From an uncultured Chloroflexota bacterium (GTDB taxonomy: Bacteria > Chloroflexota > UBA11872 > VXNJ01), in contig CAZBZS010000001.1 of NCBI GenBank assembly GCA_964496475.1, forward strand, positions 36,512 through 100,511: 64,000 nt of DNA, written 5' to 3'. This document shows positions 11,046 to 61,469 of this stretch, piece by piece. The first letter of the stretch is position 1. The number at the start of each line of letters is the position of its first letter. The notes beneath the pieces are model-generated. The model was given only the letters and a program-made list of their open reading frames with translations, was not told the origin of the DNA and made no database searches. A program made the translations under genes and the position numbers.

Positions 11046-12108
11046 ATGTGCGCGGCAGTTCGACGCCAGCGGAGCCGTCGCCCGTTCGCGAGCCAGGGAG
11101 CATGCGATGAAGGAGCGCTTCGAATCGGGATCGCGATCGCTGTAAGCGTCTTGGTAGCAGTGGCATCGTTTAGTCCGGGTATCTCCGCGGCAACGTATTG
11201 CACGGAAGTTCAAGATCCTGAGTATGTGCTCGGATTCGCCTTCATGAAGTTGCAGCTCGGCGATACGATAGGCGATCTGCTCGAGTGCGAACACACCAAC
11301 CCCGAAAACGGAGGCACGCTCCAAACAAGATCAAGGGCCTGGCTTTCTACCGAAAAGCAACGAATACGCCCACGTTTACCGATGGATGGAATCACTGTGC
11401 CTGGACGGCGGACGGGCTGGTTACATGGACCGGCGACAGCGTAGACCCATCGGGGATCGAGGTCCCGACTCCGACTCCCGCACCGACCGCGGTGCCGACT
11501 GCGCCTCCCGCGCCGACTGCGGCGCCCACTCAGCCGCCAGCAGTCGCCACTGAGCGGACTCAGACGTTCAGCAGAAGTGGAGATCAGGTTCTCCGCGTGA
11601 CGCTGCAGGCCGGCGTGGACCTGTTCGACTTTACCCACGACGGGTCAAGGAATTTCATTGCCTGGATGCGTGGGGCGAGCGACGATCTGCTGGTCAATGA
11701 AATTGGCGGGTACCGTGGCACAACCATGGCCGGTGTTCAGGCGGGCGAATTCCTACTCGATATCCAGGCGGACGGCGCATGGACATTATCCCTGAGAGAA
11801 CTGCGGAACCAGACCCCGGTCGGCGTACCTCACACGGCCACCGGCAGCGGTGACGCGGTGTCGAGTTTCATGAGCCTGAGCGGACTGTACATTGTCACCG
11901 CGAACTACACCGGTAGCTCGAACTTCATCGTTTGGCTGTATGACTCGAACGGGCAGTGAATTGACCGAGTCTTCAACAAGATCGGCTCCTACTCAAGGGG
12001 CAACACCGTCCGTGTGAATAGCGGATCGTACGTTCTCGTGGTCAAGTCCAGTGGCGACTGGTCGATCCAGATGGAGTAACCGCGAGAGGGGGACCGTCTT
12101 CTGAGGGA
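11046..12108 (+). pseudogene. Secreted PT-linker protein with two tandem ~75-aa C-terminal repeats, disrupted by a frameshift (~11325-11335) and an in-frame TGA (11956-11958)
   Basis: Frame A: R-rich n-region SRRPF, then h-region IGIAIAVSVLVAVASF, then a Cys-containing N-domain ending ...ECEHTNPENGGTLQ. The protein-like sequence then switches to frame B (NKIKGLAFYRKATNTPTFTDGWNHCAWTADGLV...). A P/T/A linker follows (PTPTPAPTAVPTAPPAPTAAPTQPP). Repeat 1 is GDQVLRVTLQAG...AWTLSLRE. Repeat 2 is GDAVSSFMSLSG...NGQ*IDRVFNKIGSY...DWSIQME, and it continues cleanly through the TGA to a TAA at 12106-12108. Confidence 0.55.
11461..11562 (+). repeat. Low-complexity Pro/Thr/Ala codon repeat (PT-linker) inside the secreted repeat protein
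   Basis: ccgact/ccgacc/gcgccg codon iterations encoding PTPTPAPTAVPTAPPAPTAAPTQPP. Confidence 0.8.
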
Positions 12109-12110
12109 AA

Positions 12111-12983
12111 TCATCCCGCAACGGCGATGAGGGCGACGCCGGCGGCAAGGGACAGGGCGCCGAGGATTCGGGCGCGGCCGGCACGCTCTTTGAGCAGCAA
12201 GACCCCGTAAAGAGTGGCGATGAGGATGCTGGTCTCGCGGGCGGCGGAGACGTACGTGACGATGCTCCAGGTCATGGCCGTAAGCACCATCGTGTAGGCG
12301 CCGAACAGGAGGATTCCGGCGGCGATGATCCAGAGGTATTCACGACGCACTAACGAAGTGAGCCGGACGGGCTTGCGGAGGTAGTAGGGGGCCATCAGCA
12401 GGGCCGAGCCCAGCACCCATAGCCACATGTAGATCAGGGGATTGACACGGGTGACGCCCGCCTTGTCGAGGACTGAATAAATGCCGATGGTCACCCCGGT
12501 GAGAAGGGCCAGGCGAGTGCCCGGCATCGTGACCAGGGCACGAAACGGCCGGGTGAGGTCGCGGATGGTGAGGTGCTCGGTACTTAGCAGGTAGACACCG
12601 GCGATCACCAGCAGCACGCCGCCGACACCGGCGACTGTCGGGGACTCGCCAAGGACGATAAAGGCGATGATCAGGACGAAGAGCGGACCGGTGCCACGGG
12701 CGAGCGGATAGGCGACGGAGAGGTCGGTGCGAGAGAGCGCTCCGCCGAGAAACAGGAAATAGAAGACGTGGATGACGGCGGAGGCGACGATAAAGATCCA
12801 GCCCTCGCCACTGATCGGATGGCTTGGCAGCAGGATGGCAAAGGCTGGCGCGTAGCCGATGACCCCAGCGATGATGGCCAGCCAGAGGAAAGCGCCTTGA
12901 TCGCGGGAACGCTTCGCCATGTAATTCCAGCCTGAATGCAGGAAGGCGGAGCCCAGTGCCAGGGCGAGAGCCGCGAGATCCAT
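12111..12983 (-). CDS. EamA/DMT-superfamily transporter
   Basis: 290 aa, 10 predicted TM helices in a two-EamA-domain pattern. Confidence 0.8.
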   Translation of the reverse strand: MDLAALALALGSAFLHSGWNYMAKRSRDQGAFLWLAIIAGVIGYAPAFAILLPSHPISGEGWIFIVASAVIHVFYFLFLGGALSRTDLSVAYPLARGTGPLFVLIIAFIVLGESPTVAGVGGVLLVIAGVYLLSTEHLTIRDLTRPFRALVTMPGTRLALLTGVTIGIYSVLDKAGVTRVNPLIYMWLWVLGSALLMAPYYLRKPVRLTSLVRREYLWIIAAGILLFGAYTMVLTAMTWSIVTYVSAARETSILIATLYGVLLLKERAGRARILGALSLAAGVALIAVAG

Positions 12984-14284
12984 TATTCGCCGGCCGCCGG
13001 CTTGAATTCAGCGATCACCGCGTGGTGGCGTTCGCCGGATCGGTACACGAAGAGGCGGTAGGGCGTGTCTCCTCGCAGGTAGCGCTGGAGGCGGGCCGCG
13101 ATGACATCCCCGGGCTCGGGAAAGCCGCGACAACGCACGGCAACCGAGCCGGACCCGAGCTTGCGGAGCCGCTCGCCGATGGCGCGATCGGAGAACGGTA
13201 GGGCGTCGATCACCCGATAATAGCGGGCGAATGGGGTTGTGGGCGCTGTATTGCTGGCCAAAAAGGCGATTTGCTCCGCCAGGACGCCGTGCTCGATGCC
13301 AGTGGCGGCGGCGAACTCGGTGAAGAGCCCCGAACGCACCAGGGCCGGCTCGGGCTCGGCGATAAAGCGGCCCGGTTCCTGTACGGGCAGGTAGTGGCCG
13401 GGTTCGCCGGTGAGTTCGGCGCGTGGGTTGTCGGCGGCGGCGCCGGACCCAAGCACAGTAGCCCGAAGGGAAGTCGAGATGGCTTGGCCAGCCCAGATGA
13501 CGGCCTCCTTGAGTTCGCCGTCGACGGAGACGAATTCGATCTCCGCGCCGGGGAAGGCATCCCGCAGGGCCGAGAGGGAAGCGGCGGGCGCGAGCTTGAT
13601 GGTGGTTGCCGGAGCACGGCCGGCCAGATCCGAGAGGAAGTCGATGGGCGGCGAGAGCCTTTTCAGGGAGGTGCTGCGTCGGTTTTCGGAGCGACGGGAA
13701 GGGTCGGCGTATACGACGCCGAATCCGTCGAGTGAAGCGGCTTCGGCCTCCCCGGTGCGGACCTGCACGCGGCCACCCATCCGGCCGGCTTCTTCCCCGG
13801 TTTCGTCGAAGCCGGCCTCGGAGAGGTTGCGTCGCACCATATCGGCCAGGAGTGGGTCGGATTCGACAGCGACGACAGACGCGCCGGCGCGGGCGAGCGC
13901 CAGAGTATCTCCACCCATCCCGGCGCAAACCTCCAGCACTGCTCCGAACCCGGAGAGTCGTTCGGCACGATGATCGGCGGCGATGGCGCCAGAAGCCTGC
14001 TCCAGCGCGGTGCGGGTGTACCAACGGGGATGGTCGGGGCCGAACTTGCGGACCGCGGCGGCACGTCCGGCAACGAGCTCGACGACCAGTGAGACGGCAG
14101 CCACGCCGCACTTCGCCCGGATCCTTTCCACCGTATGTAGCAGCCGCTGCCCGCTCACGTCGGCAGGGCCCAGGCTCGCAAGCAGTCGCTGGCCAGCCTC
14201 ATCGGCCAGGAAGCCCACAGCTTCAATTTTCTCAGGTATCGTCAACGCGGGTTGCCGCCATAAGTAGGTGGGTTGTCGCTCCAT
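12983..14284 (-). CDS. Class I SAM-dependent methyltransferase (large, THUMP-like-associated family)
   Basis: VLEVCAGMGGDTLALARAGASVVAVESDP is a Rossmann SAM motif I. 433 aa. The overlapping plus-strand ORFs are R-rich artefacts. Confidence 0.7.
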   Translation of the reverse strand: MERQPTYLWRQPALTIPEKIEAVGFLADEAGQRLLASLGPADVSGQRLLHTVERIRAKCGVAAVSLVVELVAGRAAAVRKFGPDHPRWYTRTALEQASGAIAADHRAERLSGFGAVLEVCAGMGGDTLALARAGASVVAVESDPLLADMVRRNLSEAGFDETGEEAGRMGGRVQVRTGEAEAASLDGFGVVYADPSRRSENRRSTSLKRLSPPIDFLSDLAGRAPATTIKLAPAASLSALRDAFPGAEIEFVSVDGELKEAVIWAGQAISTSLRATVLGSGAAADNPRAELTGEPGHYLPVQEPGRFIAEPEPALVRSGLFTEFAAATGIEHGVLAEQIAFLASNTAPTTPFARYYRVIDALPFSDRAIGERLRKLGSGSVAVRCRGFPEPGDVIAARLQRYLRGDTPYRLFVYRSGERHHAVIAEFKPAAGE

Positions 14285-14327
14285 ATAATGGCTTCCAGGA
14301 AGAATACCGGAGGGGGCCGACGGAGCC

Positions 14328-15096
14328 GATGATCCTGAAGCGATCTAATGCCTACCGGGCGCGCGGGTTCGTGCTGCGCCGTCACGACCTCGGCGAAGCC
14401 GACCGAATCGTGACCCTCTACACCCGCGAGCATGGCAAACGCCGGGCAGTGGCTAAGGGCGTGCGCAAGCCGCAGAGCCGACTGGCCGGTCATATCGAAC
14501 TGTTCTCGCTCGTGGATACGTACCTTGTGGTCGGGGGGAATCTGGACGTGTTGACGCAGGCGACAGCGCTGACCACCTATCCGCAACTGGTGGCGGACCT
14601 GGAGCGATTCGCGCAGGCGTCCTGGGCGGCGGAGACGCTGGATAGATTGACTCCCGAGTCCGAGGCGGATTCGTATCTCTTTGACGTTTTCGAGATCGCG
14701 CTGGAACGGATCGCCGCAGCCGAGCGGCCGGGGCTGCATCTGCGGCAATTCGAATTGCTGGCGCTGGATCGGGCCGGTTACCGGCCGCAACTCGAACGCT
14801 GCGTCGAATGCGGGGAATCGCTGCAGGAAACGACGAACAGATTCGCGCCGCAGGCGGGCGGGGTCGTGTGCCCGAAGTGCCCTCCCGACGGATTGTCGAT
14901 TCCGTTGTCGCTGCGCACGTTGAAATCGACGCGTTGGCTCCTGGCGGCGGAGCCCGGGTCGGCGGGGAGGCTGCAGACGGACGGCGAGTTGGAAGCCGGG
15001 CTGGAAAAGCTGCTGAGGTCGTACCTGACGGCTGTAGTGGGCAGCGGGTTTCGCTCGGCGGACCTGCTGGACCGGGTGCGCTCCAACAACGTCTAG
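14328..15096 (+). CDS. recO: DNA repair protein RecO
   Basis: MILKRSNAYRARGFVLRRHDLGEADRIVTLYT is the RecO N-terminal OB fold, with a C-terminal CxxC...CxxC zinc finger (CVECG...CPKC). The ORF track's long N-terminal extension from 13606 is spurious. Confidence 0.9.
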
Positions 15097-15198
15097 AAGA
15101 GAGGCGATCGGACGGGTCGCGCGGCATTGACCGCACCGGGCATAATCTCCCGACCTGACTAATCACCCTGCGCTCCCACTCGCACCGAACAGGACTGC

Positions 15199-16539
15199 AT
15201 GGCCAAGAAAAACAACACGATGGACAAACTGGTCTCCCTGGCCAAGCGGCGCGGGTACGTGTTCCCCAGCTCCGAGATTTACGGCGGCTTCGGCAGCACC
15301 TGGGACTACGGTCCGCTCGGAGCGGAGCTGATCCGTAACATCAAGGAAGCCTGGTGGCGGGACGTAGTGCTGGCGCACGACAATGTCGTGGGGATCAACG
15401 CGTCGATCTTGATGTCGCCGGAGATTTGGAAAGCGTCGGGGCACGTAGAGCATTTCTCAGATCCGCTGGTGGAGTGCAGCAACTGCCGACGGAGATTTCG
15501 TCCGGATGATCTGGATAAGCCAGACCAGTGCCCGGTGTGCGGGAATAAGGAACTGGGGGAGTCGCGGCAGTTCAATACGATGTTCAAGACGTTCGTTGGG
15601 CCGGTCGAGGGCGAGGCGGCGGTGGCCTACCTGCGGCCAGAGACGGCGCAGGCGATTTTCGTGAATTTTAAGAACGTACAGCAGGCCGCCCGGGCGCGGC
15701 TGCCGTTTGGCATCGCTCAGATCGGAAAGGCGTTTCGTAACGAAATCACTACCGGCAACTTCCTCTTCCGCACCCGCGAATTTGAACAAATGGAGATGGA
15801 GTTCTTCGTCCAGCCCGGCGATGACGAGCGTTGGTTCGACTTCTGGGTGAAAGAGCGAATGGACTGGTTCCAACGCTACGGAATCCCGGAAGAGAAGTTG
15901 CGGCTGCGGGCGCACGATCCGGAAGAGCTGGCCCACTACTCGCGGGGTACCAGCGACATCGAGTACGAATTCCCGTTCGGCTGGAGTGAAATCGAGGGCA
16001 TCGCCCGGCGGGGAAATTACGACCTACACAAACACCAGGAGGCGTCCGGGAAGGACCTCACCTACTTCGACCAGACGGCGAACGAACACGTCCTACCCTG
16101 GGTTGTGGAGCCGTCAGTTGGAGTCGACCGCACCGCGCTGGCGTTTCTGGCCGAGGCATACGCCGAGGAGGAGATCGAGTCGGCAAAGGGCGAGATGGAG
16201 ACGCGCACCGTCCTGCGCCTTGACCCGCGCCTGGCGCCGACGAAGGTGGCGTTTTTCCCGCTGATCAAGAAAGAGCCACTACAGGAAATGGCGCACCGGC
16301 TACAGGACGATTCTAGGTTCGACTGGACAACCTTTTACGACGAGGCGGGGGCCATCGGCCGCCGTTACCGGCGGCAGGATGAAGCCGGGACGCCCTATTG
16401 CGTAACCGTGGACTTCGACTCACTGGATGACAATGCTGTCACGGTGAGAGACCGGGACACTCTGAAACAGGATCGGGTGGCGGTGGCGGAATTAACGCCC
16501 TATCTGAGGGAGAAACTCGCCTGGCGCCAGACAGGCTAA
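15199..16539 (+). CDS. glyQS: Glycine--tRNA ligase (dimeric class II type)
   Basis: LAKRRGYVFPSSEIYGG and the FRNEITTGNFLFRTREFEQMEMEFF motif 2/3 region. 446 aa. In the recO-glyS arrangement. Confidence 0.95.
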   Translation: MAKKNNTMDKLVSLAKRRGYVFPSSEIYGGFGSTWDYGPLGAELIRNIKEAWWRDVVLAHDNVVGINASILMSPEIWKASGHVEHFSDPLVECSNCRRRFRPDDLDKPDQCPVCGNKELGESRQFNTMFKTFVGPVEGEAAVAYLRPETAQAIFVNFKNVQQAARARLPFGIAQIGKAFRNEITTGNFLFRTREFEQMEMEFFVQPGDDERWFDFWVKERMDWFQRYGIPEEKLRLRAHDPEELAHYSRGTSDIEYEFPFGWSEIEGIARRGNYDLHKHQEASGKDLTYFDQTANEHVLPWVVEPSVGVDRTALAFLAEAYAEEEIESAKGEMETRTVLRLDPRLAPTKVAFFPLIKKEPLQEMAHRLQDDSRFDWTTFYDEAGAIGRRYRRQDEAGTPYCVTVDFDSLDDNAVTVRDRDTLKQDRVAVAELTPYLREKLAWRQTG

Positions 16540-16660
16540 GCCTGATTTCTGAGCCTTCGGCTGGGCTGGAACGGTGGCAGATTGGAGGCGCGCCGGCACG
16601 CTAGAAACAGTCAAGTCGGAAGCGTCGGAGAAGCTGGTGGCTTCAAAAAATAGGCTCCGC

Positions 16661-17952
<1,292 letters not shown>

Positions 17953-18045
17953 CGTGTCGCTCAGCGTAAAGATCGGCTATTTGCGCACGCAACTGCTATG
18001 CGCTAGTTTGATCGCCCCTCATAAATGAGATTTGCCGAAGAGTGA

Positions 18046-19266
18046 ATGCCGGGAGGCGCGAGCATGGCCGACGAGGTCGGTTTCACCACCATGGCCGATA
18101 TTTCCACCGACGCGGGAGACGCCCCCGAGATCGGCATCGGCATGATCGGGTACGCCTTTATGGGCAAAGCCCATTCCAACGGCTATAAGACGATTCCGAG
18201 CATGATGTTCCCGCCGCCGGCGATTCCAGCATTGAAGAGCATGGCGGGGCGAAACGGGGAGGCGGTGGCGGCGGCGGCAAGGCGATTCGGCTTTGAACGC
18301 CACACCACCGACTGGCGCGATCTGATAACCGATCCCGACATCCAGGTGCTGGATAACGGCGGTCCGAACAACCTGCACCTCGAGCCGACGATCGCGGCTG
18401 TAGAAGCCGGCAAACACGTTATTTGCGAAAAACCGCTGGGCCGTAATCCGGGCGAGTCGAAGCAGATGTGGGTGGCAGCGGAAAAGGCTGGGGTGAAGCA
18501 CATGGCCGCGTTCAACTACCGCTTCGTGCCGGCGATCATCCAGGCAAGGAAGCTGGTGAAAGAAGGGGCCATCGGCGAGGTGTTCCACTTCCGGGGCCGC
18601 TACGCGCAGGAATGGATCATCGATCCGGAGTTCCCGTTGATCTGGCGGCTGGACAAGGACGTAGCCGGGAGCGGGGTGCTGGGCGACCTTGGTTCGCACA
18701 CGCTGGACCTCGCAAGGTTCATCGTGGGAGAGATCACGGCGGTGAATGGCCGGCTGAAGACGTTCATCAAGGAACGCCCCCTTGCCGACGACACCAGTAA
18801 GAAGGGCCCCGTGACGGTCGACGACGCCTACATGGCCCTCTTGGAGTTCGAGAACGGCGCGATCGGTTCGGTGGAGGCGACCCGCTTCGCCAACGGGCGC
18901 AAGAACGGCAACATCTTCGAAATCAACGGCTCGAAGGGATCGATCGCCTACAACATGGAGTCGTTCAATGAACTTGAGGTCTACCTCGCCGACTCCGAAC
19001 CGACCGACGCGAACGGCTTTCGCAAGGTGCTCGTGTCCGAGGCGTTTCATCCCTACTGGGAAAACTGGTGGCCGCACGGGCACATGATCGGATGGGAGCA
19101 CACGTTCGTACACGAACTTCATCACTTCCTAGACTGCATCGTGAACGACAACGACGTGGCCCCGATGGGCGCGACGTTCGAAGACGGCTACAAGTGTGAC
19201 GTGCTGCTGGCGGCCATCGCGGAATCCGATGCCAACGGCGGGGCGCGGGTCGAAATCTCTTACTAG
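18046..19266 (+). CDS. Gfo/Idh/MocA-family NAD(P)-dependent oxidoreductase
   Basis: IGIGMIGYAFMGKAH Rossmann N-terminus and the EKP motif (HVICEKPLG). Alternative ATG starts at 18064 and 18091. Confidence 0.9.
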   Translation: MPGGASMADEVGFTTMADISTDAGDAPEIGIGMIGYAFMGKAHSNGYKTIPSMMFPPPAIPALKSMAGRNGEAVAAAARRFGFERHTTDWRDLITDPDIQVLDNGGPNNLHLEPTIAAVEAGKHVICEKPLGRNPGESKQMWVAAEKAGVKHMAAFNYRFVPAIIQARKLVKEGAIGEVFHFRGRYAQEWIIDPEFPLIWRLDKDVAGSGVLGDLGSHTLDLARFIVGEITAVNGRLKTFIKERPLADDTSKKGPVTVDDAYMALLEFENGAIGSVEATRFANGRKNGNIFEINGSKGSIAYNMESFNELEVYLADSEPTDANGFRKVLVSEAFHPYWENWWPHGHMIGWEHTFVHELHHFLDCIVNDNDVAPMGATFEDGYKCDVLLAAIAESDANGGARVEISY

Positions 19267-19296
19267 CAGCGCTCGGGCAGAGCGGGAGGCATTGCC

Positions 19297-20268: not shown

Positions 20269-20290
20269 GCCTAACCAAGACCAGAGGGGA

Positions 20291-21187: not shown

Positions 21188-22195
21188 ATGATCAACGTCG
21201 GAATCGTCGGCTGCGGGCGAATAATCGAAGACGGCCACGCGCCGGCCTTTCAGAAGCTGACGGATCGCTTCAACGTCGTGGCCCTGGCGGACACGACCCC
21301 GGAGCGGCGCGACGCCGTCGGCGACATGCTGAACGTTCCGGCGAACAAGCGCCTGGCCGACTGGAACGATCTGCTCGCGCTGGACGAGGTGGATATGGTG
21401 GACATGGCGCTGCCGCACTTCCTGCACCTGGAATCGGCAGTGGCGGCGGCGAAATCGGGCAAGAAGATCCTCATGGAAAAACCCATGGCTACCAGCATGG
21501 ACGAGGCCGATCAGATCATGGCGGCCATCCGGCAGAACGACGCCACCGCCTGCATCGCCCACAACTACCTCTATCGCGAGTCGGCGATGAAGGCGTTGCA
21601 GCTGATTGAAGAGGGCGTCATTGGAGAGCCGTTCTTCTTCCGGCAGGGCGCGTTCATGCCACGGCACTACGCCGGCACCGCCACCTACGACTCGGGCTGG
21701 CGGGCGAAGTCGGGCATGGCCGGCGGCGGCGCGCTGATCGACAACTCCTACCACTCTCTCTATCTCGCCGCCGCGTTCCTCGGCTCGCCAATCGCCAGCG
21801 TCTTCACGAAGATGGGCACGTTCGTGCATGACATCGACGTGGAAGACACCGTCCTGCTGTCGCTGACGCACGAAAACGGATGCTTCACCGCCATCGAAAC
21901 CGGCTGGAGCACCGGCGCCGCCGAGCCGGTCGATGAGATCCACGGCACCGAGGGCTCAATCGCCTTTCGCCGTCGGTCCCCGCACTTGCAGCTATACCGC
22001 AACGGCGAGTGGGAGGACGTCGAATGGGAGGGCGACTTCTCCTGGGGATTCGACAACCTGTTCGCCGCTTACGCCGACGCGCTGGAAGCCGGGCAGCCGC
22101 CGCCGGTCAGCTTCGAAGACGGCTACATGAATATCAAGGTTGTGATGGCAGCTTACGAGTCGGGGCGCACCGGCAATCCGGTCGATATCAGCTAG
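21188..22195 (+). CDS. Gfo/Idh/MocA-family oxidoreductase
   Basis: MINVGIVGCGRIIEDGHAPAF Rossmann start and the MEKP motif. 335 aa. Confidence 0.9.
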   Translation: MINVGIVGCGRIIEDGHAPAFQKLTDRFNVVALADTTPERRDAVGDMLNVPANKRLADWNDLLALDEVDMVDMALPHFLHLESAVAAAKSGKKILMEKPMATSMDEADQIMAAIRQNDATACIAHNYLYRESAMKALQLIEEGVIGEPFFFRQGAFMPRHYAGTATYDSGWRAKSGMAGGGALIDNSYHSLYLAAAFLGSPIASVFTKMGTFVHDIDVEDTVLLSLTHENGCFTAIETGWSTGAAEPVDEIHGTEGSIAFRRRSPHLQLYRNGEWEDVEWEGDFSWGFDNLFAAYADALEAGQPPPVSFEDGYMNIKVVMAAYESGRTGNPVDIS

Positions 22196-22752
22196 GCGGC
22201 CGGTCCCCGGCTTCCGTCTAGGCAGAGTTCTCTAAGCGGAGTTTTGGCTATTGCTTTCGCTTTGCCCGGGTGGGGCTGCCCGGTTTCAAGAAAGTGTTTC
22301 AGCTCTTCCAAATAACGGTTGCTGGCGTGATTGGCTCGCATTTTCATCAACGGCGCAAGCAGACGCATTTGACTTCCGATCTTCACGGATATGTGCGTCT
22401 TGACCATTGAGCGGTCGTCGTCGATTTCGTTCACCGATCAGCGATTCACGGCCTGCGTAAAGAAGCCGGGAAGTCCCGCGGTGGTCTGGAGCTGAAAGGA
22501 TTTCGCGTCCGGATCGAAACCCGTCAAAGTGCGCCTGATCTGACCTATCTTGAACGGGCCGACTGCCGCTATCTCCGCAACCCGCGATGCACCGATCGCC
22601 GAGGAGGTCCCCATCGATGAGGAAACGAAACCGGAAGACCACTCGCCAATATCACCAAAGTTCTCGCCGACGATCTTCCACATGACAGCCGCCGGTTTGT
22701 CGATGGTGATCTCAGCCTTGATATCCAAGATTTCCCCGTGGTCATGATTCAT
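22192..22752 (-). pseudogene. SRPBCC (START/Bet v1-like, polyketide cyclase/dehydrase family) protein interrupted by an in-frame TGA
   Basis: ORF 22438-22752 (MNHDHGEILDIKAEITIDKPAAVMWKIVGENF...FFTQAVNR) and ORF 22192-22434 (VNEIDDDRSMVKTHISVKIGSQMRLLAPLMKMRANHASNRYLEELKHFLETG) share one frame. They are separated only by a TGA (complement of 22438-22440) plus one codon. Together they form one complete ~185-aa SRPBCC fold including the C-terminal long helix. Confidence 0.6.
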
Positions 22753-30518: not shown

Positions 30519-30812
30519 CGGGGACGCATTACCGGGGAGTTGGAGCGGCCGGGAGCCTCGCCGGATGGTGCCCGAAACACAAAAAGGGACGCTCCACCGA
30601 CGCCGGTCGCCACCAATTTGTCCCCGGGTTTACCAGGTGGGTGCCCGCGGCCGACACGAACGGCTTTCGCCGATCCCGCCACCAGCCAAGCTCCCCTATT
30701 TGAAGTGTTGGAACAAAATATTCAGGCGATTATCGAACGCGGTCGAGCGTCCTCAGCCAATTATCGCCCATGCGGCAGCGGCTGTGAAGTAACTCCCGCA
30801 ACGCCAGGACGG

Positions 30813-52058: not shown

Positions 52059-52061
52059 GTC

Positions 52062-53644: not shown

Positions 53645-53660
53645 ACCTATCCCCCTCCGG

Positions 53661-54032
53661 GTGACAAACGGAATCGACGCCATCGAAATCCACCGCATCC
53701 GCGGCGTCCTCGACCGACACGGCGACCGCTTCCTGCACAAGGCGATCCAGCTCGTCGTCGACGGCACGACCGGTGGTCAACACTCCGAACTCGCTGCCCG
53801 TTTCGCGGCCAAAGAGGCCATTTCCAAGGCCCTCGGCACCGGCATCCGCGGAGTCTACTGGCGCGAGATGGAGATCGTTTCCGACCCCCGCGGCAAGCCC
53901 CTGGTGGTCCTCCACGACAACGCCCTGCGCCGCGCCGAGGAACTGGGAATCCAGGACCTGGGCGTCAGCCTCACCCACAGCCAGGACTTCGCCATCGCCA
54001 GCGTGGTCGGCATCATCTCCGATCCGGACTGA
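53661..54032 (+). CDS. acpS: Holo-[acyl-carrier-protein] synthase
   Basis: GIDAIEIHRI, RFAAKEAISKALG and VSLTHSQDFAIASV motifs. 123 aa. Confidence 0.9.
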   Translation: MTNGIDAIEIHRIRGVLDRHGDRFLHKAIQLVVDGTTGGQHSELAARFAAKEAISKALGTGIRGVYWREMEIVSDPRGKPLVVLHDNALRRAEELGIQDLGVSLTHSQDFAIASVVGIISDPD

Positions 54033-54087
54033 TGCTGCGAGCCGCCGTCGGCCCCGCAGGGGTAGGCCCGTCCGGGGATAATCGGGC

Positions 54088-55614: not shown

Positions 55615-55620
55615 ACCCGG

Positions 55621-56256
55621 TCACTCTCCGCCGCGTGTTTCCCAGCCTTCGTCAACCAAGCGTTCGATCGTGTCGTTGGCGAAGCCGCGCCGCTTCAGGT
55701 AGACGCCCAGCTTCTGTCGGAAGCTGGCCCAGTCTTCACCGGCTAGCACGATGGCTCGAGCCTCCGCCAGGGGCCGCGCCACCTCCAGTTCGCCTGGATA
55801 ATCCTGAGCCAGCGCGGAGTCGATGTGATCGTCGCACAAGCCTTTTTCTCGAAGTTCTCGCCTAATCAAACAGACGCCCTTGGGCCGCAGACTGATGCGT
55901 GATCCGACCCACGCCCGGGCAAAATCCTCATCGTTCAACAGGCCCTGGATCGTGAAATCGGTCACCAGGCCGTCGATCGTGTCCGGCTCCAGATTCTCCC
56001 GCCGCAGTCGCAATCGAATTTCCTGCTCGCTCCGGGGTCTTTCCCGAAGAAAGCGCAGCGCCACCGCTCTGCCGTGCCGCCGGTCGCTCTCCTTTACGGC
56101 GGCGTCCAGTTCTTCTTCATCCACCATGGAGGTATTTCCAAAGCCGAAATCCGCAAAGACCTCCCGCCTCAGTTCCAGTCTCTCTCCGTTCGTGAATTCC
56201 ACCCGCACCCAACCCCGCCGGACCCCTTTGAAGAAGTGACCCTCTATCTCCGGCAC
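55621..56256 (-). CDS. recX: Recombination regulator RecX
   Basis: Three-helix repeats (AVALRFLRERPRSEQEIRLRLRRENLEPDTIDGLVTDFTIQGLLNDEDFARAWVGSR). No recA in the window. Confidence 0.8.
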   Translation of the reverse strand: MPEIEGHFFKGVRRGWVRVEFTNGERLELRREVFADFGFGNTSMVDEEELDAAVKESDRRHGRAVALRFLRERPRSEQEIRLRLRRENLEPDTIDGLVTDFTIQGLLNDEDFARAWVGSRISLRPKGVCLIRRELREKGLCDDHIDSALAQDYPGELEVARPLAEARAIVLAGEDWASFRQKLGVYLKRRGFANDTIERLVDEGWETRGGE

Positions 56257-56257
56257 G

Positions 56258-56890
56258 CTAGAAGCGCGACTTCTGCCACAGCACCGCCCCCACCGTCGCC
56301 ACGCTGACCATGTAGTAGAAGAGCGACCTGATCAGAAGGTCAATTATCTGTACGGGCAGTGTTCCAGCGGGCGCACGGCCGGTTAGCGGCTCAATCACAC
56401 CGCCGAACCGCAGCACCGTGATCAAAACTGTTGCTATCAAGAGCCCTTGCAGAATCGACATCGCCCCGAATGTGATCGCGCCGCTCATACCCCGCTCTCG
56501 CTCGATTCCGCCCAGTCGCGTGGCGACCAGGAACCCCACCGCCACCCCCAGAATCATCCCCCAGGTGGAGAATGGCCGGTCGAGGCTTACGTAGACCTGC
56601 ACCAGACTCAGCGCGGTAGCGATCCCGGTCACTTTCAACACCTGGCCGGCGGCGCGCGCCCGGCGCTGAATCTCTGGCGGAGGCAGTCCCAGGCACTCAA
56701 AGCAGATGTTGCCCGCGTCCCGCCTCTCCAGACAGTCGACACAGTACGACCGTTTGCAGCGAATACAGACGAGCATTGTGTCGACCGTGCAGTGAGAGCA
56801 GACGCTCATTTGCTCGCCATCATCGCCGGCCGGCGGATGCTCGTGGTCGGCCTGACCGGGCGTCAGGGCATGCCGGTGATCCTCGCTCAT
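56258..56890 (-). CDS. Membrane protein with N-terminal Cys-rich zinc-ribbon (B-box-like) domain
   Basis: CSHC...CIRC...CVDC...CFEC gives eight Cys in four CxxC pairs, then 4 TM helices. 210 aa. Confidence 0.55.
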   Translation of the reverse strand: MSEDHRHALTPGQADHEHPPAGDDGEQMSVCSHCTVDTMLVCIRCKRSYCVDCLERRDAGNICFECLGLPPPEIQRRARAAGQVLKVTGIATALSLVQVYVSLDRPFSTWGMILGVAVGFLVATRLGGIERERGMSGAITFGAMSILQGLLIATVLITVLRFGGVIEPLTGRAPAGTLPVQIIDLLIRSLFYYMVSVATVGAVLWQKSRF

Positions 56891-56917
56891 CGCCCGCCGA
56901 CCCTCTCCTGAGCCCGA

Positions 56918-57595
56918 CTACTCCCCTGATCCCCCACCGGAGCCCCGATCCTTCGAGCTGGCAAAGTAAGTCGGCCACTCGGCCATCTGCAACTCTGTGC
57001 CCGCTGCCAGACGGCGCAGATTGGGTCGGTGCTGCCAGATGATCAGCGCGGATGTCGGAATTATGAATACCAGCCCCCAAGGTGAGCGCCAGGCGCCGGT
57101 TACATAGAGGATTGTGCCCACCGCGACCGCCGCCAGCGTTCCCGCCAGCGATCCCAGTGACACATACCGCAACGCGATTACGATGGATATCGCGATCGTT
57201 CCCCCCACCAGCCCCGCCACCGGATAGATGATCAACACCGCTCCGAACGCCGTCGCCACTCCCCGTCCACCCCGAAATCCTGCGAACACCGACCAGCTAT
57301 GGCCAACCACGGCGACAACTGCGACCGCAGCCTGCACCCAGGGAGCGTCCGGCAACACGAGCCCGGCGACTAGCGTAGCCAGCATCCCCTTCAAAAAGTC
57401 AGCCGCGAACACCATCAGACCGGCCTTCCAGCCCAGTACCCTGAAGGCGTTTGTGGCCCCCATGCTCCTGCTACCGCTCTCGAAGAGGTTGACGCCGAAC
57501 GCGAATTTGCCGACCACCAGCCCGAAAGGAATGGCGCCAATCAGATATGCCGACGCGACCAAAGCCACCGCCAACAATATTTCGCCTACGGTCAC
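56918..57595 (-). CDS. plsY: Glycerol-3-phosphate acyltransferase PlsY
   Basis: GSRSMGATNAFR matches the PlsY GSGNxGATN motif. 5-TM pattern. 225 aa. Confidence 0.9.
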   Translation of the reverse strand: MTVGEILLAVALVASAYLIGAIPFGLVVGKFAFGVNLFESGSRSMGATNAFRVLGWKAGLMVFAADFLKGMLATLVAGLVLPDAPWVQAAVAVVAVVGHSWSVFAGFRGGRGVATAFGAVLIIYPVAGLVGGTIAISIVIALRYVSLGSLAGTLAAVAVGTILYVTGAWRSPWGLVFIIPTSALIIWQHRPNLRRLAAGTELQMAEWPTYFASSKDRGSGGGSGE

Positions 57596-57628
57596 CCGCC
57601 CAGCCCTTTCTGCGACTCCATAGCTCGA

Positions 57629-58963
57629 TTACTCCCCCCGGCTCCCTCGGATTACCAGCCTAACCGGAGATCCGTGGAGGCCGAATTCCTCCCTGAAGCC
57701 GTTTTCTATGTATCGCACGAAATTATACTGAATCCGGCGCGGATCGCTGAAGAACAGCGTGAACGTGGGTGGCCGAGTCCCCGTCTGCGTCGCATACCGG
57801 AACTGGGCTGGTCGACCTCCACGACTCGGAGGTGGGCGTCGCCCGATCCACCGATTCAGAAACTGATTTAACCGGCCGGTCGTAATCGTGAATTTCATAG
57901 CGTCCGCCACCTTCAGCCCGGCCGGCACGATTCGTCCCACATTTGTTCCAGCCAGAGCCGAAATTCGCAGCACCGGCACGTGCCCCACAAAGCCAAAGCG
58001 GTATTTCATGCTTTCCTCGGCGATCCGCTCCGCGTACTCGTCCCCTTCTACCAGGTCCCACTTATTCGCCAAAATCACCAGCCCCCGGAAGTTGTCCACC
58101 ACGTAACCGCCGATGTGCGCGTCCTGATCCGTGGCCCCTTCGGTCGCGTCCAGCATCAGCAGGCACACGTCCGCCCGCCGCACCGAGCTCAACGCCCGCA
58201 GCACTGCATAGCGCTCGACCCCGGGGATCACCCGTCCCCGTCGCCGAAGACCGGCGGTGTCCACCAACAGCACCTCCCGCCCGTCCACCTCTATCGTCGT
58301 ATCCACCGTGTCTCGGGTTGTCCCGGCGATCTCGCTCACCAACGCCCGCTCCTCACCGGCCAACCGGTTCAGCAGCGAGGACTTCCCAACATTCGGACGT
58401 CCCACGATTGCCAGCCGTGGAGGGGTCGACGGGTCCGGAGCTGTCGACTCCATCTCCGGTAAACGGTCAGCCACCACGTCCAGCAGGTCCGCCACTCCCA
58501 ACCCATGCTGGGCCGACACCGAATAGGGGTCGCCCAACCCCAGACGATAGAAGTCCGGCGCCTGCTGCCCGCGGGCCGGGGTGTCGCATTTGTTGACCAA
58601 CAGCAGGGCCGGTTTTGCGCCGCGCCTCACTACCGCCGCCACCGCTTCGTCCCGGTCGGTGATACCAACCAGCACATCCACGACCACCAGTAGCAGATCG
58701 GCCTCCGACAGCGCCGCCCGGGCCTGGTCCTCGGCCGCCTCCGCCAGCTCGTCCAACCCCCGGGTATTAAGCCCGGCCGTGTCCATCAGTAAGAACTCCT
58801 TCCCACCCCAGTTCACCGTCTCATACGAGCGGTCGCGGGTCGTGCCCGGCATGTCCTCCACGATGACCTGGCGCCGGCCTACGATGCGGTTGAACAGGCT
58901 CGATTTGCCGACGTTCGGTTTGCCCACCAGCGCCACAATCGGCAGATCCACATTCATTCCCAT
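57629..58963 (-). CDS. der: Ribosome-associated GTPase Der (EngA)
   Basis: Two tandem GTPase domains (GKPNVGKSSLFN and GRPNVGKSSLLN) plus a KH-like C-terminus. Confidence 0.95.
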   Translation of the reverse strand: MGMNVDLPIVALVGKPNVGKSSLFNRIVGRRQVIVEDMPGTTRDRSYETVNWGGKEFLLMDTAGLNTRGLDELAEAAEDQARAALSEADLLLVVVDVLVGITDRDEAVAAVVRRGAKPALLLVNKCDTPARGQQAPDFYRLGLGDPYSVSAQHGLGVADLLDVVADRLPEMESTAPDPSTPPRLAIVGRPNVGKSSLLNRLAGEERALVSEIAGTTRDTVDTTIEVDGREVLLVDTAGLRRRGRVIPGVERYAVLRALSSVRRADVCLLMLDATEGATDQDAHIGGYVVDNFRGLVILANKWDLVEGDEYAERIAEESMKYRFGFVGHVPVLRISALAGTNVGRIVPAGLKVADAMKFTITTGRLNQFLNRWIGRRPPPSRGGRPAQFRYATQTGTRPPTFTLFFSDPRRIQYNFVRYIENGFREEFGLHGSPVRLVIRGSRGE

Positions 58964-58997
58964 GTCCGCCGGGCGTCAGGCCGACTGGATCCGGCCA

Positions 58998-59705
58998 TCA
59001 CTCCACCACCGGACGCGCGTCCATGGGGTTTCCAGCCTCTCCGGCAAGCACTCCCAAATAGCGCTCCGGCAGCAGGCGGGCGATTCGCGAAAGCATTTCC
59101 CACGCGGCCCATTCGGCAGCCTGCTGACGGCTCATCTCTTCGGAAGGGTCCAGCCTGAAAGGCTTCCCAAATTTCAGGCAGATGCGTTTGGCCGGACCCG
59201 TCGGTAATCGCGTGATGCTGACGTGTTCACTCCCGAACAATCCCACCGGCAACACCGACACCCCGGCCTTCAGCGCCAGATAGCCGACTCCCGGCAAGGG
59301 CTCGACCAACGCATGCGTAGGGCTGCGCGTGCCCTCGGGGAATATCATCACCGAATTCCCACGCTTCAGCAGCTGGAGCGCCCGGCGCACCGCGCCGATA
59401 TCGTTGCCCCGGCGATCCACCGGGAACGCTCCCAGAAACCGCAGGCCGAAGCCGATCACGGGATAGGCGAAAAGCTCTCTTTTAACCATGAAGTTGATGT
59501 GGCCCGGGTAGGCGCGGGCGATGAATTCGGGATCGGTGAAGTTGAGATGGTTGCTGACAATCAGATAAGGGCCACGCGCGGAAACGTTTTCAAGTCCCTC
59601 CACGGTCTGCTCGTCGGTGAACATTTCCACGTAGCGACCCATCACGCCCAGGAACAGATTGTAGAAGGCGCGCCGGTAGAGCGGCCAGTCGGCCCCGCTC
59701 ATCAC
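58998..59705 (-). CDS. plsC: 1-acyl-sn-glycerol-3-phosphate acyltransferase
   Basis: HxxxxD motif VSNHLNFTDP and the FPEGTRS motif. Confidence 0.9.
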   Translation of the reverse strand: MMSGADWPLYRRAFYNLFLGVMGRYVEMFTDEQTVEGLENVSARGPYLIVSNHLNFTDPEFIARAYPGHINFMVKRELFAYPVIGFGLRFLGAFPVDRRGNDIGAVRRALQLLKRGNSVMIFPEGTRSPTHALVEPLPGVGYLALKAGVSVLPVGLFGSEHVSITRLPTGPAKRICLKFGKPFRLDPSEEMSRQQAAEWAAWEMLSRIARLLPERYLGVLAGEAGNPMDARPVVE

Positions 59706-60418
59706 ATCGCGTCGGCTGCGGCGTCAACATCCGCTGCTGGCAGCCGTCGATAGGCGTCCACGATTTGCTCCGCGACCTCTTCCGCGGTGAGATCGTCCGT
59801 ATCAATAACCAGTGCACCGTCGGGCACCCGCAGTGGGGCGGTCTCACGTCTGCTGTCGATGCGATCACGAGTTTCCATCAAGGCTAGCACCCGCTCATAG
59901 TCCGATTCGCCGTCGCCGGTCTGTTTCTCCAAGTGTTTGCGGCGCGCCCGCACCTCCACCGAGGCGTCCAGGTAAACCTTCATCTCAGCCTGCGGCCAGA
60001 CCACCGTGCCCGTGTCACGCCCGGCCACCACCACCCCCCCAGTCCGCAGCGTTTCGCGCTGTTTCGGCAGCAGAACCCGACGTACGTCCGGGTGGCGAGC
60101 CACATCCGAGACGATCTTCTCCACCGCCTGCGTGTACAGGTCTCCGTTGACCTCCTCACCGTTGACCAACACCCGCTGCCCGCTCGCACTTTCGGCGTCC
60201 GCCTGGATCTCCAATCGGAGAGCCTGCGCTGCCGTCGTGGCCAGCATCTCGTCGCCGGCGTCCAGGCCCAGGCCGGACATCACCCAGGCGACCGCCCGGT
60301 AAAAAAGGCCTGTATCCACCACAACCAGCCCAAGCTTCGATGCCAGGATTCGCGAAACCGTCGTCTTGCCCGATCCCGCCGGACCGTCCATTGTCACCAC
60401 CGGCAGCCGCAAGCGCAT
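59702..60418 (-). CDS. cmk: Cytidylate kinase
   Basis: MRLRLPVVTMDGPAGSGKTTVSRILA P-loop start. The ORF-track extension to 60520 is spurious. Confidence 0.9.
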   Translation of the reverse strand: MRLRLPVVTMDGPAGSGKTTVSRILASKLGLVVVDTGLFYRAVAWVMSGLGLDAGDEMLATTAAQALRLEIQADAESASGQRVLVNGEEVNGDLYTQAVEKIVSDVARHPDVRRVLLPKQRETLRTGGVVVAGRDTGTVVWPQAEMKVYLDASVEVRARRKHLEKQTGDGESDYERVLALMETRDRIDSRRETAPLRVPDGALVIDTDDLTAEEVAEQIVDAYRRLPAADVDAAADAM

Positions 60419-60638
60419 CGTCTCCAATTCGCACCGCCGGCCCGTTCGGCAAGGCACCCGCCCGCCGCCACAGTCGACTTTACTGGACGGAAATTTGGCC
60501 GCGCTCGCCCTCCAGCCCAACCAAATCCCATCACGGCCATCACCGCAAAAACATCAGCCAATTATACCGGCGGATGCGAGCTTTCCCGACCGGGGCCTCC
60601 GCCATTCTGCCGGGCGAGGATAAGGAAGGACGGACGGT

Positions 60639-61469
60639 TTGACGGAACGGGAGCAGGAAGGCACTGAAGGACTCAATGAGCAGGCACGCTCCGCCTGGAA
60701 CCGCAACGCCGCCTTCTGGGATCAGTGGATGGGGGACGAGGGCAACGACTTCCAACGCCTGCTGGTCTGGGAGCCGACCGAACGGATGTTGGACATTCGG
60801 CATGGCGAGCGGGTCCTTGACGTGGCCTGCGGCAACGGCAATTTTTCCCGTCGGCTCGCCGCCCGGGGGGCGCGGGTGGTCGGGATCGATTTCGCCGAAG
60901 CGATGATCGAGCGGGCGCGGTCCTATCCCGAAGTTGACCGAGGCGAAATCGCCTACGCCCTTCTCGAGGTGACAAGTCCCGAAGAGCCAGCCACGCTGAG
61001 CGGAGAGCCCTTCGACGCCGCCGTGGCCAACATGGCGCTTATGGACATCTCGGACATCGCCCCGCTGCTGGATTTCCTGGCCGAAAGTCTGCGCCCTGGC
61101 GGTCGATTCGTATTCTCCGTGAGCCATCCGCTTCTTGGAACGGTCCACACCCTGCTTCGGGAACAGATCGATGTCGATGGGGAATCGCGCGAGATGCTAT
61201 CGATCAAGATCACGGAATGCTTGGACCGCGCCCCGGAACCGGGGCACGCGATTGCCGGCCAGCCGGTGCCCTAAATCTACTTCGACCGTACGCTACAAGA
61301 TTTGCTGGGCCAATCCTTCGAAGTCGGCCTGGTGATGGACGCGCTGGAGGAACCGGTCTTCCCGAAGGAATTGTCCCCCGAAGGCGGGAGTTACGACTTG
61401 ACGGATCACTTTCGCCTGTTTCCACCGGCCCTGGTTGTCCGGGTGCGCCGACCGGACACTGGCGACTAG
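60639..61469 (+). pseudogene. Class I SAM-dependent methyltransferase interrupted by an in-frame TAA
   Basis: Motif I VLDVACGNGNFS. The ORF stops at TAA 61272-61274 (...HAIAGQPVP*). The same frame then continues IYFDRTLQDLLGQSFEVGLVMDALEEPVFPKELSPEGGSYDLTDHFRLFPPALVVRVRRPDTGD to a TAG at 61467-61469. This is the expected C-terminal segment of this methyltransferase family. Confidence 0.6.

What the first reader, a model, noticed from the sequence alone, without database searches (positions are those of the whole stretch)
11046..61469. Pattern: nonsense and frameshift lesions confined to accessory genes while every core gene is intact
The 64 kb window contains three in-frame stops (11956 TGA, 22438 TGA, 61272 TAA) and at least three frameshifts (about 11330, and 17083-17200 and 17643-17695 in the LVIVD gene). 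All fall in non-essential or surface/accessory genes (secreted repeat protein, LVIVD lipoprotein, SRPBCC, methyltransferase). About 45 housekeeping genes show none. Random sequencing error should not respect gene essentiality. The pattern instead suggests ongoing pseudogenisation under relaxed selection, or a consensus built from a heterogeneous population or metagenome bin. TGA is a normal stop in this genome (glmU, prs and many others end in TGA), so genetic-code reassignment is excluded.
Basis: inference. Interest (0 to 1): 0.5.

Follow-up and report, generated by a model that had tools for sequence, protein, structure and literature searches.

The report
Four decaying genes in marine Chloroflexota
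The stop codons and frameshifts are real and mark four dispensable genes that are decaying in an uncultured marine Chloroflexota genome; this is ordinary gene loss, and one G-rich tract inside one of the genes looks like a sequencing or assembly artefact.

Summary
Four genes carry five in-frame stops (TGA x3, TAA x2), three frameshifting indels and one 76-nt G-rich tract.

Full-length homologues or syntenic orthologues run straight through every lesion. The same lesions appear in two other assemblies of the same run. About 57 other genes, roughly 36 housekeeping and 22 accessory, show no stop or frameshift.

Polarised changes are GC-to-AT transitions (CGA>TGA, CAA>TAA, TGG>TGA). Three of the four genes carry at least two lesions.

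- Two genes (secreted repeat protein, SRPBCC) are lineage-specific, have atypical codon usage, and sit in variable slots that are empty in a sister species.
- The LVIVD gene is intact in three relatives.
- The methyltransferase carries an independent nonsense mutation in the sister species and is intact in a third lineage.

dN/dS stays low (0.17-0.24), so inactivation is recent. The verdict is genuine recent pseudogenes, which is ordinary biology. The G-rich tract is probably an artefact. Read-level confirmation is still missing.

The parts
11046..12079 (+). Pseudogene 1: secreted or anchored protein with an N-terminal conserved domain, a Pro/Thr linker and two copies of a ~90-aa repeat (no Pfam family)
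   Evidence: Codon-usage score is 0.03-0.07 per codon against a genome mean of 0.196 +/- 0.058. The gene is absent from the sister species and from L005 and L006 at this slot.
11322..11336 (+). Lesion: 1-nt deletion (frameshift), most simply A4>A3 at 11323-11325
   Evidence: There are 17 nt where all homologues have 6 codons ('LQxTxxGL'). The reading frame switches here.
11957..11959 (+). Lesion: in-frame TGA in the second repeat
   Evidence: The frame continues for 39 more conserved codons to TAA at 12077. The aligned residue is Q in the two closest homologues; the other six have a gap here.
16661..17937 (-). Pseudogene 2: LVIVD-repeat lipoprotein (lipobox AVQGC)
   Evidence: Pfam LVIVD hit. 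Syntenic intact orthologues lie next to glyS in L005 (63% identity), L006 (51%) and the sister species (82%).
17695..17697 (-). Lesion: in-frame TGA in the Pro/Thr linker
   Evidence: The sister species has CGA (Arg) in an otherwise identical context, so this is a C>T change. L005 has R and L006 has T.
17236..17241 (-). Lesion: 1-nt deletion (frameshift)
   Evidence: Sister reads CGC ATT ATT TCC ACA; window reads CGC ATT TTT CCA CC. Repairing it gives 'DIRIxSTRSKDLGFAEV', colinear with all orthologues.
17093..17095 (-). Lesion: in-frame TAA
   Evidence: The sister species has CAA (Gln), so this is a C>T change. L005 has CAG.
16917..16992 (-). G-rich tract (G14 C G7 CGGTC G8 CGTC G37 on the coding strand); probably a read or assembly artefact seeded on a native Gly-Gly-Gly run
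   Evidence: Orthologues have only 'GGG(R)' here, 12 nt. The MEGAHIT contig ends inside the tract at 16951, the Logan contig ends at 16916, and the next MEGAHIT contig starts at 17023.
22192..22752 (-). Pseudogene 3: SRPBCC / Polyketide_cyc2 protein
   Evidence: The Pfam PF10604 match spans the stop. Homologues of 161-165 aa are 56% identical. Codon-usage score is 0.067 per codon, and local GC is in the lowest 1% of the window. The slot is empty in the sister species and holds other genes in L006.
22438..22440 (-). Lesion: in-frame TGA replacing a Trp present in both close homologues (TGG>TGA)
22231..22243 (-). Lesion: probable 13-nt insertion (imperfect tandem copy) that shifts the frame at the 3' end
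   Evidence: Deleting it restores '...KAKAIAKNSA*', the exact C-terminus of both homologues.
60639..61469 (+). Pseudogene 4: class I SAM-dependent methyltransferase (~276 aa when intact), between cmk and nudC
   Evidence: More than 2500 homologues of ~270 aa. The syntenic orthologue is intact in a third lineage (L186, 87% aa identity) and is independently interrupted (GAA>TAA at codon 89) in the sister species in all 10 contigs shown, from at least 9 sample records (23 contigs carry the 188-aa product).
61272..61274 (+). Lesion: in-frame TAA
   Evidence: The sister and third lineages both have CAC (His). 65 further conserved codons follow in frame.

Best explanation
The window is part of a population genome of an uncultured marine Chloroflexota. 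It was assembled from a Mediterranean water-column metagenome (run SRR5007147, project PRJNA352798). Four of its roughly 61 genes are genuine, recently formed pseudogenes.

Shown:
- Each gene is interrupted relative to full-length homologues.
- Three of the four carry two or more independent lesions.
- The lesions that can be polarised are GC-to-AT transitions or small indels.

Inferred mechanism: the genes stopped being needed. After a first inactivating mutation drifted or hitch-hiked to fixation, further lesions accumulated neutrally, and deletion will eventually remove them.

The four genes have different histories.
- The secreted repeat protein and the SRPBCC protein look like lineage-specific, probably horizontally acquired genes. 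They sit in gene-turnover slots (cdd-EamA and GFO2-uvrC) and are now being lost.
- The LVIVD lipoprotein is an ancestral, syntenically conserved surface protein lost only in this lineage.
- The methyltransferase is dispensable across the clade, because a sister species has inactivated it independently.

Lesions are missing from housekeeping genes simply because such mutants are removed by selection.

The 76-nt G-rich tract in the LVIVD gene is most likely not biological. It looks like a sequencing or assembly artefact seeded on a native GGG-GGG-GG run.
For: Lesions against homologues.

Reproducibility: MEGAHIT (ENA ERZ909419) and Logan assemblies of the same run carry every lesion. Most are 99.96-100% identical to the window; one MEGAHIT contig (L175) is 99.82%.

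Random error is implausible.
- Only 2.8% of single-base substitutions in these ORFs create a stop. Five stops would therefore imply about 180 errors, or 0.3%.
- Seven random lesions would fall in four or fewer genes with P = 0.003.

Direction of change: CGA>TGA and CAA>TAA polarised by the sister species, and TGG>TGA by a Trp present in both close homologues.

Gene histories:
- G1 and SRPBCC are absent without remnant in the sister species, and their slots hold other genes in L005 and L006.
- Their codon usage is atypical and local GC is low.
- The LVIVD gene is intact and syntenic in three relatives.
- The methyltransferase has an independent TAA in the sister species in all 10 contigs shown, from at least 9 sample records (23 contigs carry the 188-aa product), and is intact in a third lineage.

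Timing:
- dN/dS against the sister species is 0.169 for LVIVD and 0.237 for the methyltransferase, against 0.03-0.19 for 26 neighbouring genes.
- On the window branch, the methyltransferase has 23 unique amino-acid changes and 23 unique synonymous changes. cmk, nudC and phyH pooled have 46 and 90.
- This fits recent relaxation.

A fifth case, a KamA-family gene with an in-frame TAG, lies about 4.6 kb beyond the window end.

Recoding is excluded: TGA is the commonest normal stop, aligned residues are W, R or Q rather than Cys, and no unusual hairpin follows any TGA (z from -0.6 to +0.1).
Against: - All three assemblies come from one sequencing run. They test the assembler, not the reads, and I could not see per-site allele frequencies or coverage.
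- This species was found in no other sample.
- Coverage looks thin or uneven. Contigs from two assemblers stop on the same base (61155) inside the methyltransferase gene, 117 nt before its stop, and around the G-tract.
- The methyltransferase has a single lesion. It could be a segregating allele, or less likely a consensus error.
- dN/dS is far below 1, so 'relaxed selection' is inferred mainly from the lesions themselves.
- The window consensus is not flawless in core genes. acpS carries a 33-nt in-frame block that scores 18 bits worse than a hybrid carrying the MEGAHIT contig's version of that block.
- The class-level contrast is only modestly significant (P = 0.027).
Confidence: 0.8

Rival explanations
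1. The lesions are sequencing or consensus errors in a thinly covered metagenome contig. The genes are intact in the organism.
For: - The G-rich tract at 16917-16992 and clusters of N>C or N>G changes in the MEGAHIT contigs show that this read set produces systematic errors.
- Contig breaks at 16916/16951/17023 and at 61155 suggest coverage problems in two of the four genes.
- All assemblies share one read set.
Against: - Every lesion is identical in three assemblies made with different assemblers.
- The lesions are concentrated in four genes (P = 0.003).
- Only 2.8% of random substitutions make stops, yet outside the lesions the assemblies differ at 0.04% of sites or fewer, apart from one MEGAHIT contig (L175, about 0.18%, mostly in the acpS patch).
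- The stops are C>T or G>A transitions, not the N>G/C pattern of the visible artefacts.
- The sister species shows that a real nonsense allele of the same methyltransferase is present in all 10 contigs shown, from at least 9 sample records.
Confidence: 0.07
2. The contig is a consensus or chimera of co-existing strains. The lesions belong to minority or different strains, so no single cell carries this set of dead genes.
For: - Strain variation exists in the sample: isolated SNPs between assemblies and a divergent ~100-nt patch in acpS.
- Contig breaks fall inside two of the lesion genes.
Against: - Differences between assemblies are rare (0-0.04%; about 0.18% for MEGAHIT contig L175, mostly in the acpS patch), and none lies at a lesion.
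- Several lesions lie within 150-600 nt of each other in one gene. Individual reads or read pairs would link some of them.
- G1 and SRPBCC have no intact close copy anywhere in a 5.8-billion-protein collection.
Confidence: 0.08
3. The stops or shifts are decoded rather than inactivating, through selenocysteine at TGA, stop-codon read-through or programmed frameshifting.
For: - Three of the five stops are TGA.
- The downstream reading frames remain open and conserved.
- The methyltransferase is interrupted by a single stop in two species.
Against: - Aligned residues are Trp, Arg or Gln, never Cys.
- No unusual structure follows the TGAs.
- TGA ends 30 of 63 ordinary ORFs.
- Two stops are TAA.
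- Lesion positions are not conserved in orthologues, which have sense codons.
- The frameshift sites lack a conserved slippery motif in relatives.
Confidence: 0.02
4. The G-rich tract is a real hypermutable homopolymer, a contingency locus that switches a surface lipoprotein on and off.
For: - It lies inside a surface-protein gene, at a native Gly-Gly-Gly run.
- The tract happens to keep the frame.
Against: - A G37 run plus interrupted G-runs is far beyond known bacterial phase-variable tracts (own knowledge).
- None of the three orthologues has a tract here.
- Two assemblers cannot cross it.
- The gene is already dead from three other lesions.
Confidence: 0.03

Closest known systems
Unitary bacterial pseudogenes formed by nonsense mutations and small indels, then removed by deletion (general picture from comparative genomics, e.g. 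Kuo and Ochman on pseudogene turnover; own knowledge)
   Same: - Disrupted relative to intact orthologues.
- Multiple lesions per gene.
- GC-to-AT bias of the changes.
- Young age (dN/dS still low).
- The sister species has already lost two of the genes completely.
   Different: Nothing essential. The setting is an uncultured free-living marine Chloroflexota rather than a host-restricted bacterium.
'Failed' horizontally transferred genes, the large class of prokaryotic pseudogenes with atypical composition (Liu, Harrison, Kunin and Gerstein 2004; own knowledge)
   Same: - G1 and SRPBCC have atypical codon usage and low GC.
- They occupy slots whose content differs between close relatives.
- They have no close homologue elsewhere.
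   Different: The donor is unknown, so acquisition is inferred and not shown. The LVIVD gene and the methyltransferase are native genes and do not fit this class.
Selenoprotein genes (in-frame TGA plus a SECIS hairpin)
   Same: In-frame TGA with a conserved downstream frame.
   Different: Homologues have W, R or Q at the site rather than Cys or Sec. There is no hairpin signal, and two stops are TAA.
Phase-variable contingency loci with homopolymeric tracts in surface-protein genes
   Same: A homopolymer inside a lipoprotein gene.
   Different: The tract is 76 nt, is absent from orthologues and cannot be assembled. The gene carries three other fixed lesions.
Poly-G/poly-C artefacts from low-signal Illumina read tails incorporated into assemblies (own knowledge)
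   Same: - A long G-run interrupted by sporadic other bases.
- Contig ends at the tract.
- N>G/C error clusters elsewhere in assemblies of the same run.
   Different: The study reports HiSeq 4000 sequencing (PMC6040077), a four-colour instrument on which poly-G tails are less typical. The mechanism is therefore not established.

Membership tests
Pseudogene (inactivated copy of a protein-coding gene) | Full-length, uninterrupted homologues or orthologues exist and align across the lesion | tested here: met
   - G1.
- LVIVD.
- SRPBCC.
- Methyltransferase.
Pseudogene (inactivated copy of a protein-coding gene) | The lesion truncates or shifts a conserved part of the protein | tested here: met
   - The SRPBCC stop lies inside the PF10604 match.
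- The methyltransferase loses 65 conserved C-terminal residues.
- G1 is shifted inside its most conserved motif.
- LVIVD is broken three times.
Pseudogene (inactivated copy of a protein-coding gene) | The lesion is present in the DNA of the organism and is not an error | tested here: inconclusive
   The lesions are identical in three assemblies, and their clustering and mutation spectrum argue against error. All assemblies use one read set, and I could not inspect the reads.
Pseudogene (inactivated copy of a protein-coding gene) | Relaxed selection (elevated dN/dS, several lesions) | tested here: met
   - Three of four genes have at least two lesions.
- dN/dS is 0.169 and 0.237, at or above the top of the neighbours' range of 0.03-0.19.
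- The window-branch N:S ratio is 1.0 against 0.5.
- The elevation is modest, which implies recent events.
Selenoprotein gene | Cys or Sec at the aligned position in homologues | tested here: not met
   The aligned residues are W, R or T and Q.
Selenoprotein gene | SECIS-like hairpin just downstream of the TGA | tested here: not met
   z-scores are -0.63, -0.52 and +0.10 against shuffles.
Genetic-code reassignment of TGA | TGA is not used as an ordinary terminator | tested here: not met
   30 of 63 called ORFs end in TGA.
Programmed ribosomal frameshift | The shift site and two-frame organisation are conserved in orthologues | tested here: not met
   Orthologues and homologues are in a single frame at both sites.
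Phase-variable contingency locus | A homopolymer tract present in orthologues or strains, with length variation | tested here: not met
   The tract is absent from L005, L006 and the sister species. Length variation cannot be tested without reads.
Read or assembly artefact (G-rich tract only) | The tract is not reproducible across assemblers and is absent from relatives | tested here: met
   Contigs end at 16916 and 16951 and restart at 17023. Orthologues have 12 nt there.

The most novel reading that the evidence does not exclude
The decay may not be passive. The same SAM-methyltransferase is knocked out independently in two sister species of pelagic Chloroflexota; one of these alleles is present in all 10 contigs shown, from at least 9 sample records. 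Five of about 70 neighbouring genes (about 7%) are broken in this lineage. Together these would indicate selection-driven gene loss, or an unusually high pseudogene load, in a free-living oceanic bacterium. That would be genome streamlining caught in the act, in a group where efficient selection is expected to leave few pseudogenes.
Probability: 0.15. Interest if true: 0.45.

Novelty: already known. Interest (0 to 1): 0.2.

Why it matters
Mostly as quality control and annotation guidance. These four loci should be annotated as pseudogenes, not split into fragment ORFs. The G-rich tract at 16917-16992 and the acpS block at 53741-53772 should be treated as suspect sequence.

Biologically it gives a small, clean example of gene turnover in marine Chloroflexota. 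Two variable slots hold decaying lineage-specific genes, one ancestral surface lipoprotein is being lost, and one methyltransferase has been lost twice independently. It does not reveal a new mechanism.

Tried and rejected
- **Selenocysteine or read-through.** Rejected on aligned residues, stop usage and absence of structure.
- **Metagenome scan with GlyRS.** The sister species was reached instead through the 90% cluster of GlyRS.
- **Apparent lesion polymorphism in the sister species.** Different lengths were called for THUMP-MTase, cdd, glmU and CNNM. This turned out to be gene-caller differences on 99.98-100% identical DNA, so I dropped it.
- **dN/dS row for nnr.** It used a wrong frame offset and should be ignored.
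- **First attempt at LVIVD dN/dS.** It used a wrong start. One search has the corrected version.
- **Remnants of G1 or SRPBCC in the sister's intergenic DNA.** A sensitive blastn found none.
- **Is the sister's SRPBCC gene, in another slot, the orthologue?** No. It is 24% identical, so it is a paralogue.
- I therefore could not extend the census far beyond the window or settle which acpS version the Logan assembly supports.
- **Literature search for poly-G artefacts on HiSeq 4000.** It returned only irrelevant 'polygenic' hits.
- **One script call.** It returned no answer and was repeated.


Full report
**Provenance and gene content**

The window has 63% G+C. I called genes with a self-trained codon-usage model and a frame-aware segmentation. 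This gave about 61 protein genes, two tRNAs and a 6S RNA.

Exact-protein look-ups place the same DNA in a MEGAHIT assembly (ENA ERZ909419) and a Logan assembly of run SRR5007147, project PRJNA352798. That project is a Mediterranean water-column study, sequenced on HiSeq 4000 and assembled with IDBA-UD (PMC6040077). The window's own proteins are also recorded from an NCBI contig of 126,660 nt.

The nearest genomes are Chloroflexota MAGs:
- L005 has 87% GlyRS identity.
- L006 has 73% GlyRS identity and lies on a 3-Mb contig.

**Checking the observation**

So is the frameshift near 11330. There, 17 nt stand where every homologue has six codons, which is most simply explained by loss of one A from the run at 11323-11325.

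- The ORFs 17952-17695 and 17643-17200 are in the same frame, separated by an in-frame TGA at 17697-17695.
- The real frameshift is a single-base loss at about 17236-17241.
- A second in-frame stop, TAA at 17095-17093, follows.

Two further features were missed:
- A 76-nt G-rich tract at 16917-16992.
- A probable 13-nt insertion at 22231-22243 in the SRPBCC gene. Removing it restores the C-terminus '...AKNSA*' shared by both homologues.

The inventory is therefore five nonsense codons, three frameshifting indels and one G-rich tract, all within four genes.

**Are the other genes intact?**

The segmentation found no other in-frame stop inside continuing coding signal, and no other same-strand frame switch without a gene boundary. 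Pfam scans of the remaining ORFs gave end-to-end domain matches.

About 36 of the intact genes are housekeeping. Examples are glmU, prs, glyS, aspS, infC, uvrC, ruvAB, der, plsY, plsC, cmk, nadBC, acpS, rpmE and rpsU.

About 22 intact genes are themselves accessory:
- two GFO/IDH/MocA oxidoreductases
- three xylose-isomerase-like TIM barrels
- EamA, AI-2E, two ABC exporters, PhyH and a LarA-like protein
- several hypothetical proteins

The true contrast is therefore four decayed genes against everything else. All four falling in the accessory class has P = 0.027. The concentration of seven lesions in four or fewer genes has P = 0.003 under random placement.

**Are the lesions real relative to homologues?**

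LVIVD:
- Syntenic orthologues lie immediately downstream of glyS in L005, L006 and a sister species, and run uninterrupted through all three lesions.
- With the sister as outgroup, the stops are CGA>TGA and CAA>TAA. The shift is ATTATTTCC>ATTTTTCC.

SRPBCC:
- The TGA replaces a Trp that both close homologues have.

Methyltransferase:
- More than 2500 homologues of about 270 aa continue past the TAA for 65 conserved residues.
- Both close lineages have CAC at the stop position.

**Are they errors?**

- The MEGAHIT and Logan contigs carry every lesion. Most are 99.96-100% identical to the window; one MEGAHIT contig (L175) is 99.82%, with most of its differences in one patch in acpS.
- Only 2.8% of possible single-base substitutions in these ORFs create stops. 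Five stops from random error would imply an error rate of about 0.3%, about eight or more times the typical differences observed.
- The visible artefacts in this read set are N>C or N>G changes. The stops are C>T or G>A.
- All assemblies use one read set, however, and this species was not found in any other sample. Read-level confirmation is still missing.

**Evolutionary context**

A sister species is 83-87% identical in DNA and fully syntenic. Its contigs, from at least six samples, are 99.98-100% identical to each other, apart from one slightly divergent strain at 99.2-99.7%.

- It lacks G1 and SRPBCC altogether, and no remnant is left in the intergenic DNA.
- In L005 the G1 slot (cdd-EamA) holds a HicB-like gene and a TIM-barrel gene.
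- In L006 the SRPBCC slot (GFO2-uvrC) holds two unrelated genes.
- G1 and SRPBCC score 0.03-0.07 per codon on codon usage, against 0.196 +/- 0.058 for the rest. They sit in the lowest 1-5% of local G+C.

These two genes are therefore lineage-specific, probably acquired, and now decaying. The LVIVD gene and the methyltransferase have native codon usage.

The sister's methyltransferase carries its own in-frame stop, GAA>TAA at codon 89, in all ten loci examined (23 contigs on record). A third lineage (L186, 87% aa identity) has it intact in the same cmk-nudC context. This is independent loss of the same gene.

**Timing**

Window against sister, dN/dS values are:

| Gene set | dN/dS |
|---|---|
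| 26 neighbouring genes | 0.03-0.19 |
| LVIVD | 0.169 |
| Methyltransferase | 0.237 |

On the window branch, the methyltransferase has 23 unique amino-acid and 23 unique synonymous changes. cmk, nudC and phyH pooled have 46 and 90. Constraint was therefore lost recently relative to the species split (dS about 0.4-0.7). This fits the small number of lesions per gene.

**Recoding alternatives**

- TGA terminates 30 of 63 ORFs.
- Aligned residues are W, R or Q and never Cys.
- RNA folding downstream of the three TGAs is no better than for shuffled sequence.
- Orthologues are single-frame at both shift sites.

Selenocysteine, reassignment and programmed frameshifting are excluded for practical purposes.

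**The G-rich tract**

Orthologues have 'GGG(R)', 12 nt, where the window has 76 nt of G-runs broken by a few other bases. The MEGAHIT contig stops inside the tract, the Logan contig stops at its edge, and the next contig restarts 30 nt beyond it.

I read this as an artefact seeded on a native G-run. The reported instrument is four-colour, so the exact error mechanism is uncertain. The flanks are colinear with orthologues, so the join itself is probably correct.

**Caveats seen on the way**

- Contigs from both assemblers end on the same base, 61155, inside the methyltransferase gene. This suggests a local coverage minimum.
- In acpS, a core gene, the window and the MEGAHIT contig differ by a non-homologous in-frame 33-nt block. 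TIGR00516 scores are 84.9 bits for the window, 94.8 for MEGAHIT and 103 for a hybrid of the two. The window consensus is therefore not guaranteed correct even where frames are open.
- About 4.6 kb beyond the window end, a KamA-family radical-SAM gene carries an in-frame TAG. It is a fifth broken non-essential gene on the same contig.

**Verdict**

These are genuine, recent pseudogenes in dispensable genes, plus one probable artefact. It is ordinary biology and does not point to a new mechanism.

Noticed in passing
window 16917-16992: A 76-nt tract (C37 GACG C8 GACCG C7 G C14 on the + strand) lies inside the LVIVD pseudogene. Orthologues have 12 nt here, and two other assemblies of the same run break at it. 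It is probably a read or assembly artefact.
   Followed up: yes
window 53741-53845 (acpS, 53661-54032): The window and the MEGAHIT contig of the same run differ here. One difference is a non-homologous in-frame 33-nt block; the others are five changes to G or C. By TIGR00516, neither version is as canonical as a hybrid of the two (84.9, 94.8 and 103 bits). This points to strain variation or local mis-assembly in a core gene.
   Followed up: partly
L003 3315-4382 (about 4.6 kb beyond the window end, same contig): A KamA-family radical-SAM / LAM_C gene is split by an in-frame TAG ('...TPEA*KACALL...'). It is a fifth broken non-essential gene in this lineage.
   Followed up: partly
window 61155: Two MEGAHIT contigs and one Logan contig of the same run all end on this base and overlap by a single nucleotide. 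The position is inside the methyltransferase gene, 117 nt before its stop. It is probably a coverage minimum. How the window's assembler bridged it is unknown.
   Followed up: partly
L177-L184 and L085-L094 (sister species): Most contigs of the sister species, from at least six samples and several projects, are 99.98-100% identical over 13-21 kb; one (L183) is 99.2-99.7%. This is a remarkably clonal, widespread population.
   Followed up: partly
L178 11504-12568; L005 11592-12620: The LVIVD orthologue varies in repeat number. The sister species has an in-frame loss of the repeat that holds the window's G-tract. L005 lacks the last repeat.
   Followed up: partly
L086 8562-9949 versus window 63374-63510: The sister species has three extra genes (YCII, an SRPBCC paralogue at 24% identity, and a hypothetical) between phyH and the TPP enzyme gene. 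The window has only 137 nt there, so this is a third variable slot.
   Followed up: partly
window 30587-30751 (-): A 6S RNA (Rfam RF00013, 56.7 bits) lies downstream of aspS, between it and the ABC-transporter gene.
   Followed up: no
window 3674-4260: A 587-nt stretch upstream of rpsU has no convincing ORF and no Rfam match. It could be a leader, an unknown RNA or a fully decayed gene.
   Followed up: no
window 635-997 (-): Ribosomal protein L31 is 120 aa. The Pfam domain covers residues 1-63 and is followed by a 57-aa C-terminal extension.
   Followed up: no
L001 (window 12961-12989): The MEGAHIT contig differs from the window by five clustered changes, all to C. This is an error pattern of that assembly or read set.
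   Followed up: partly
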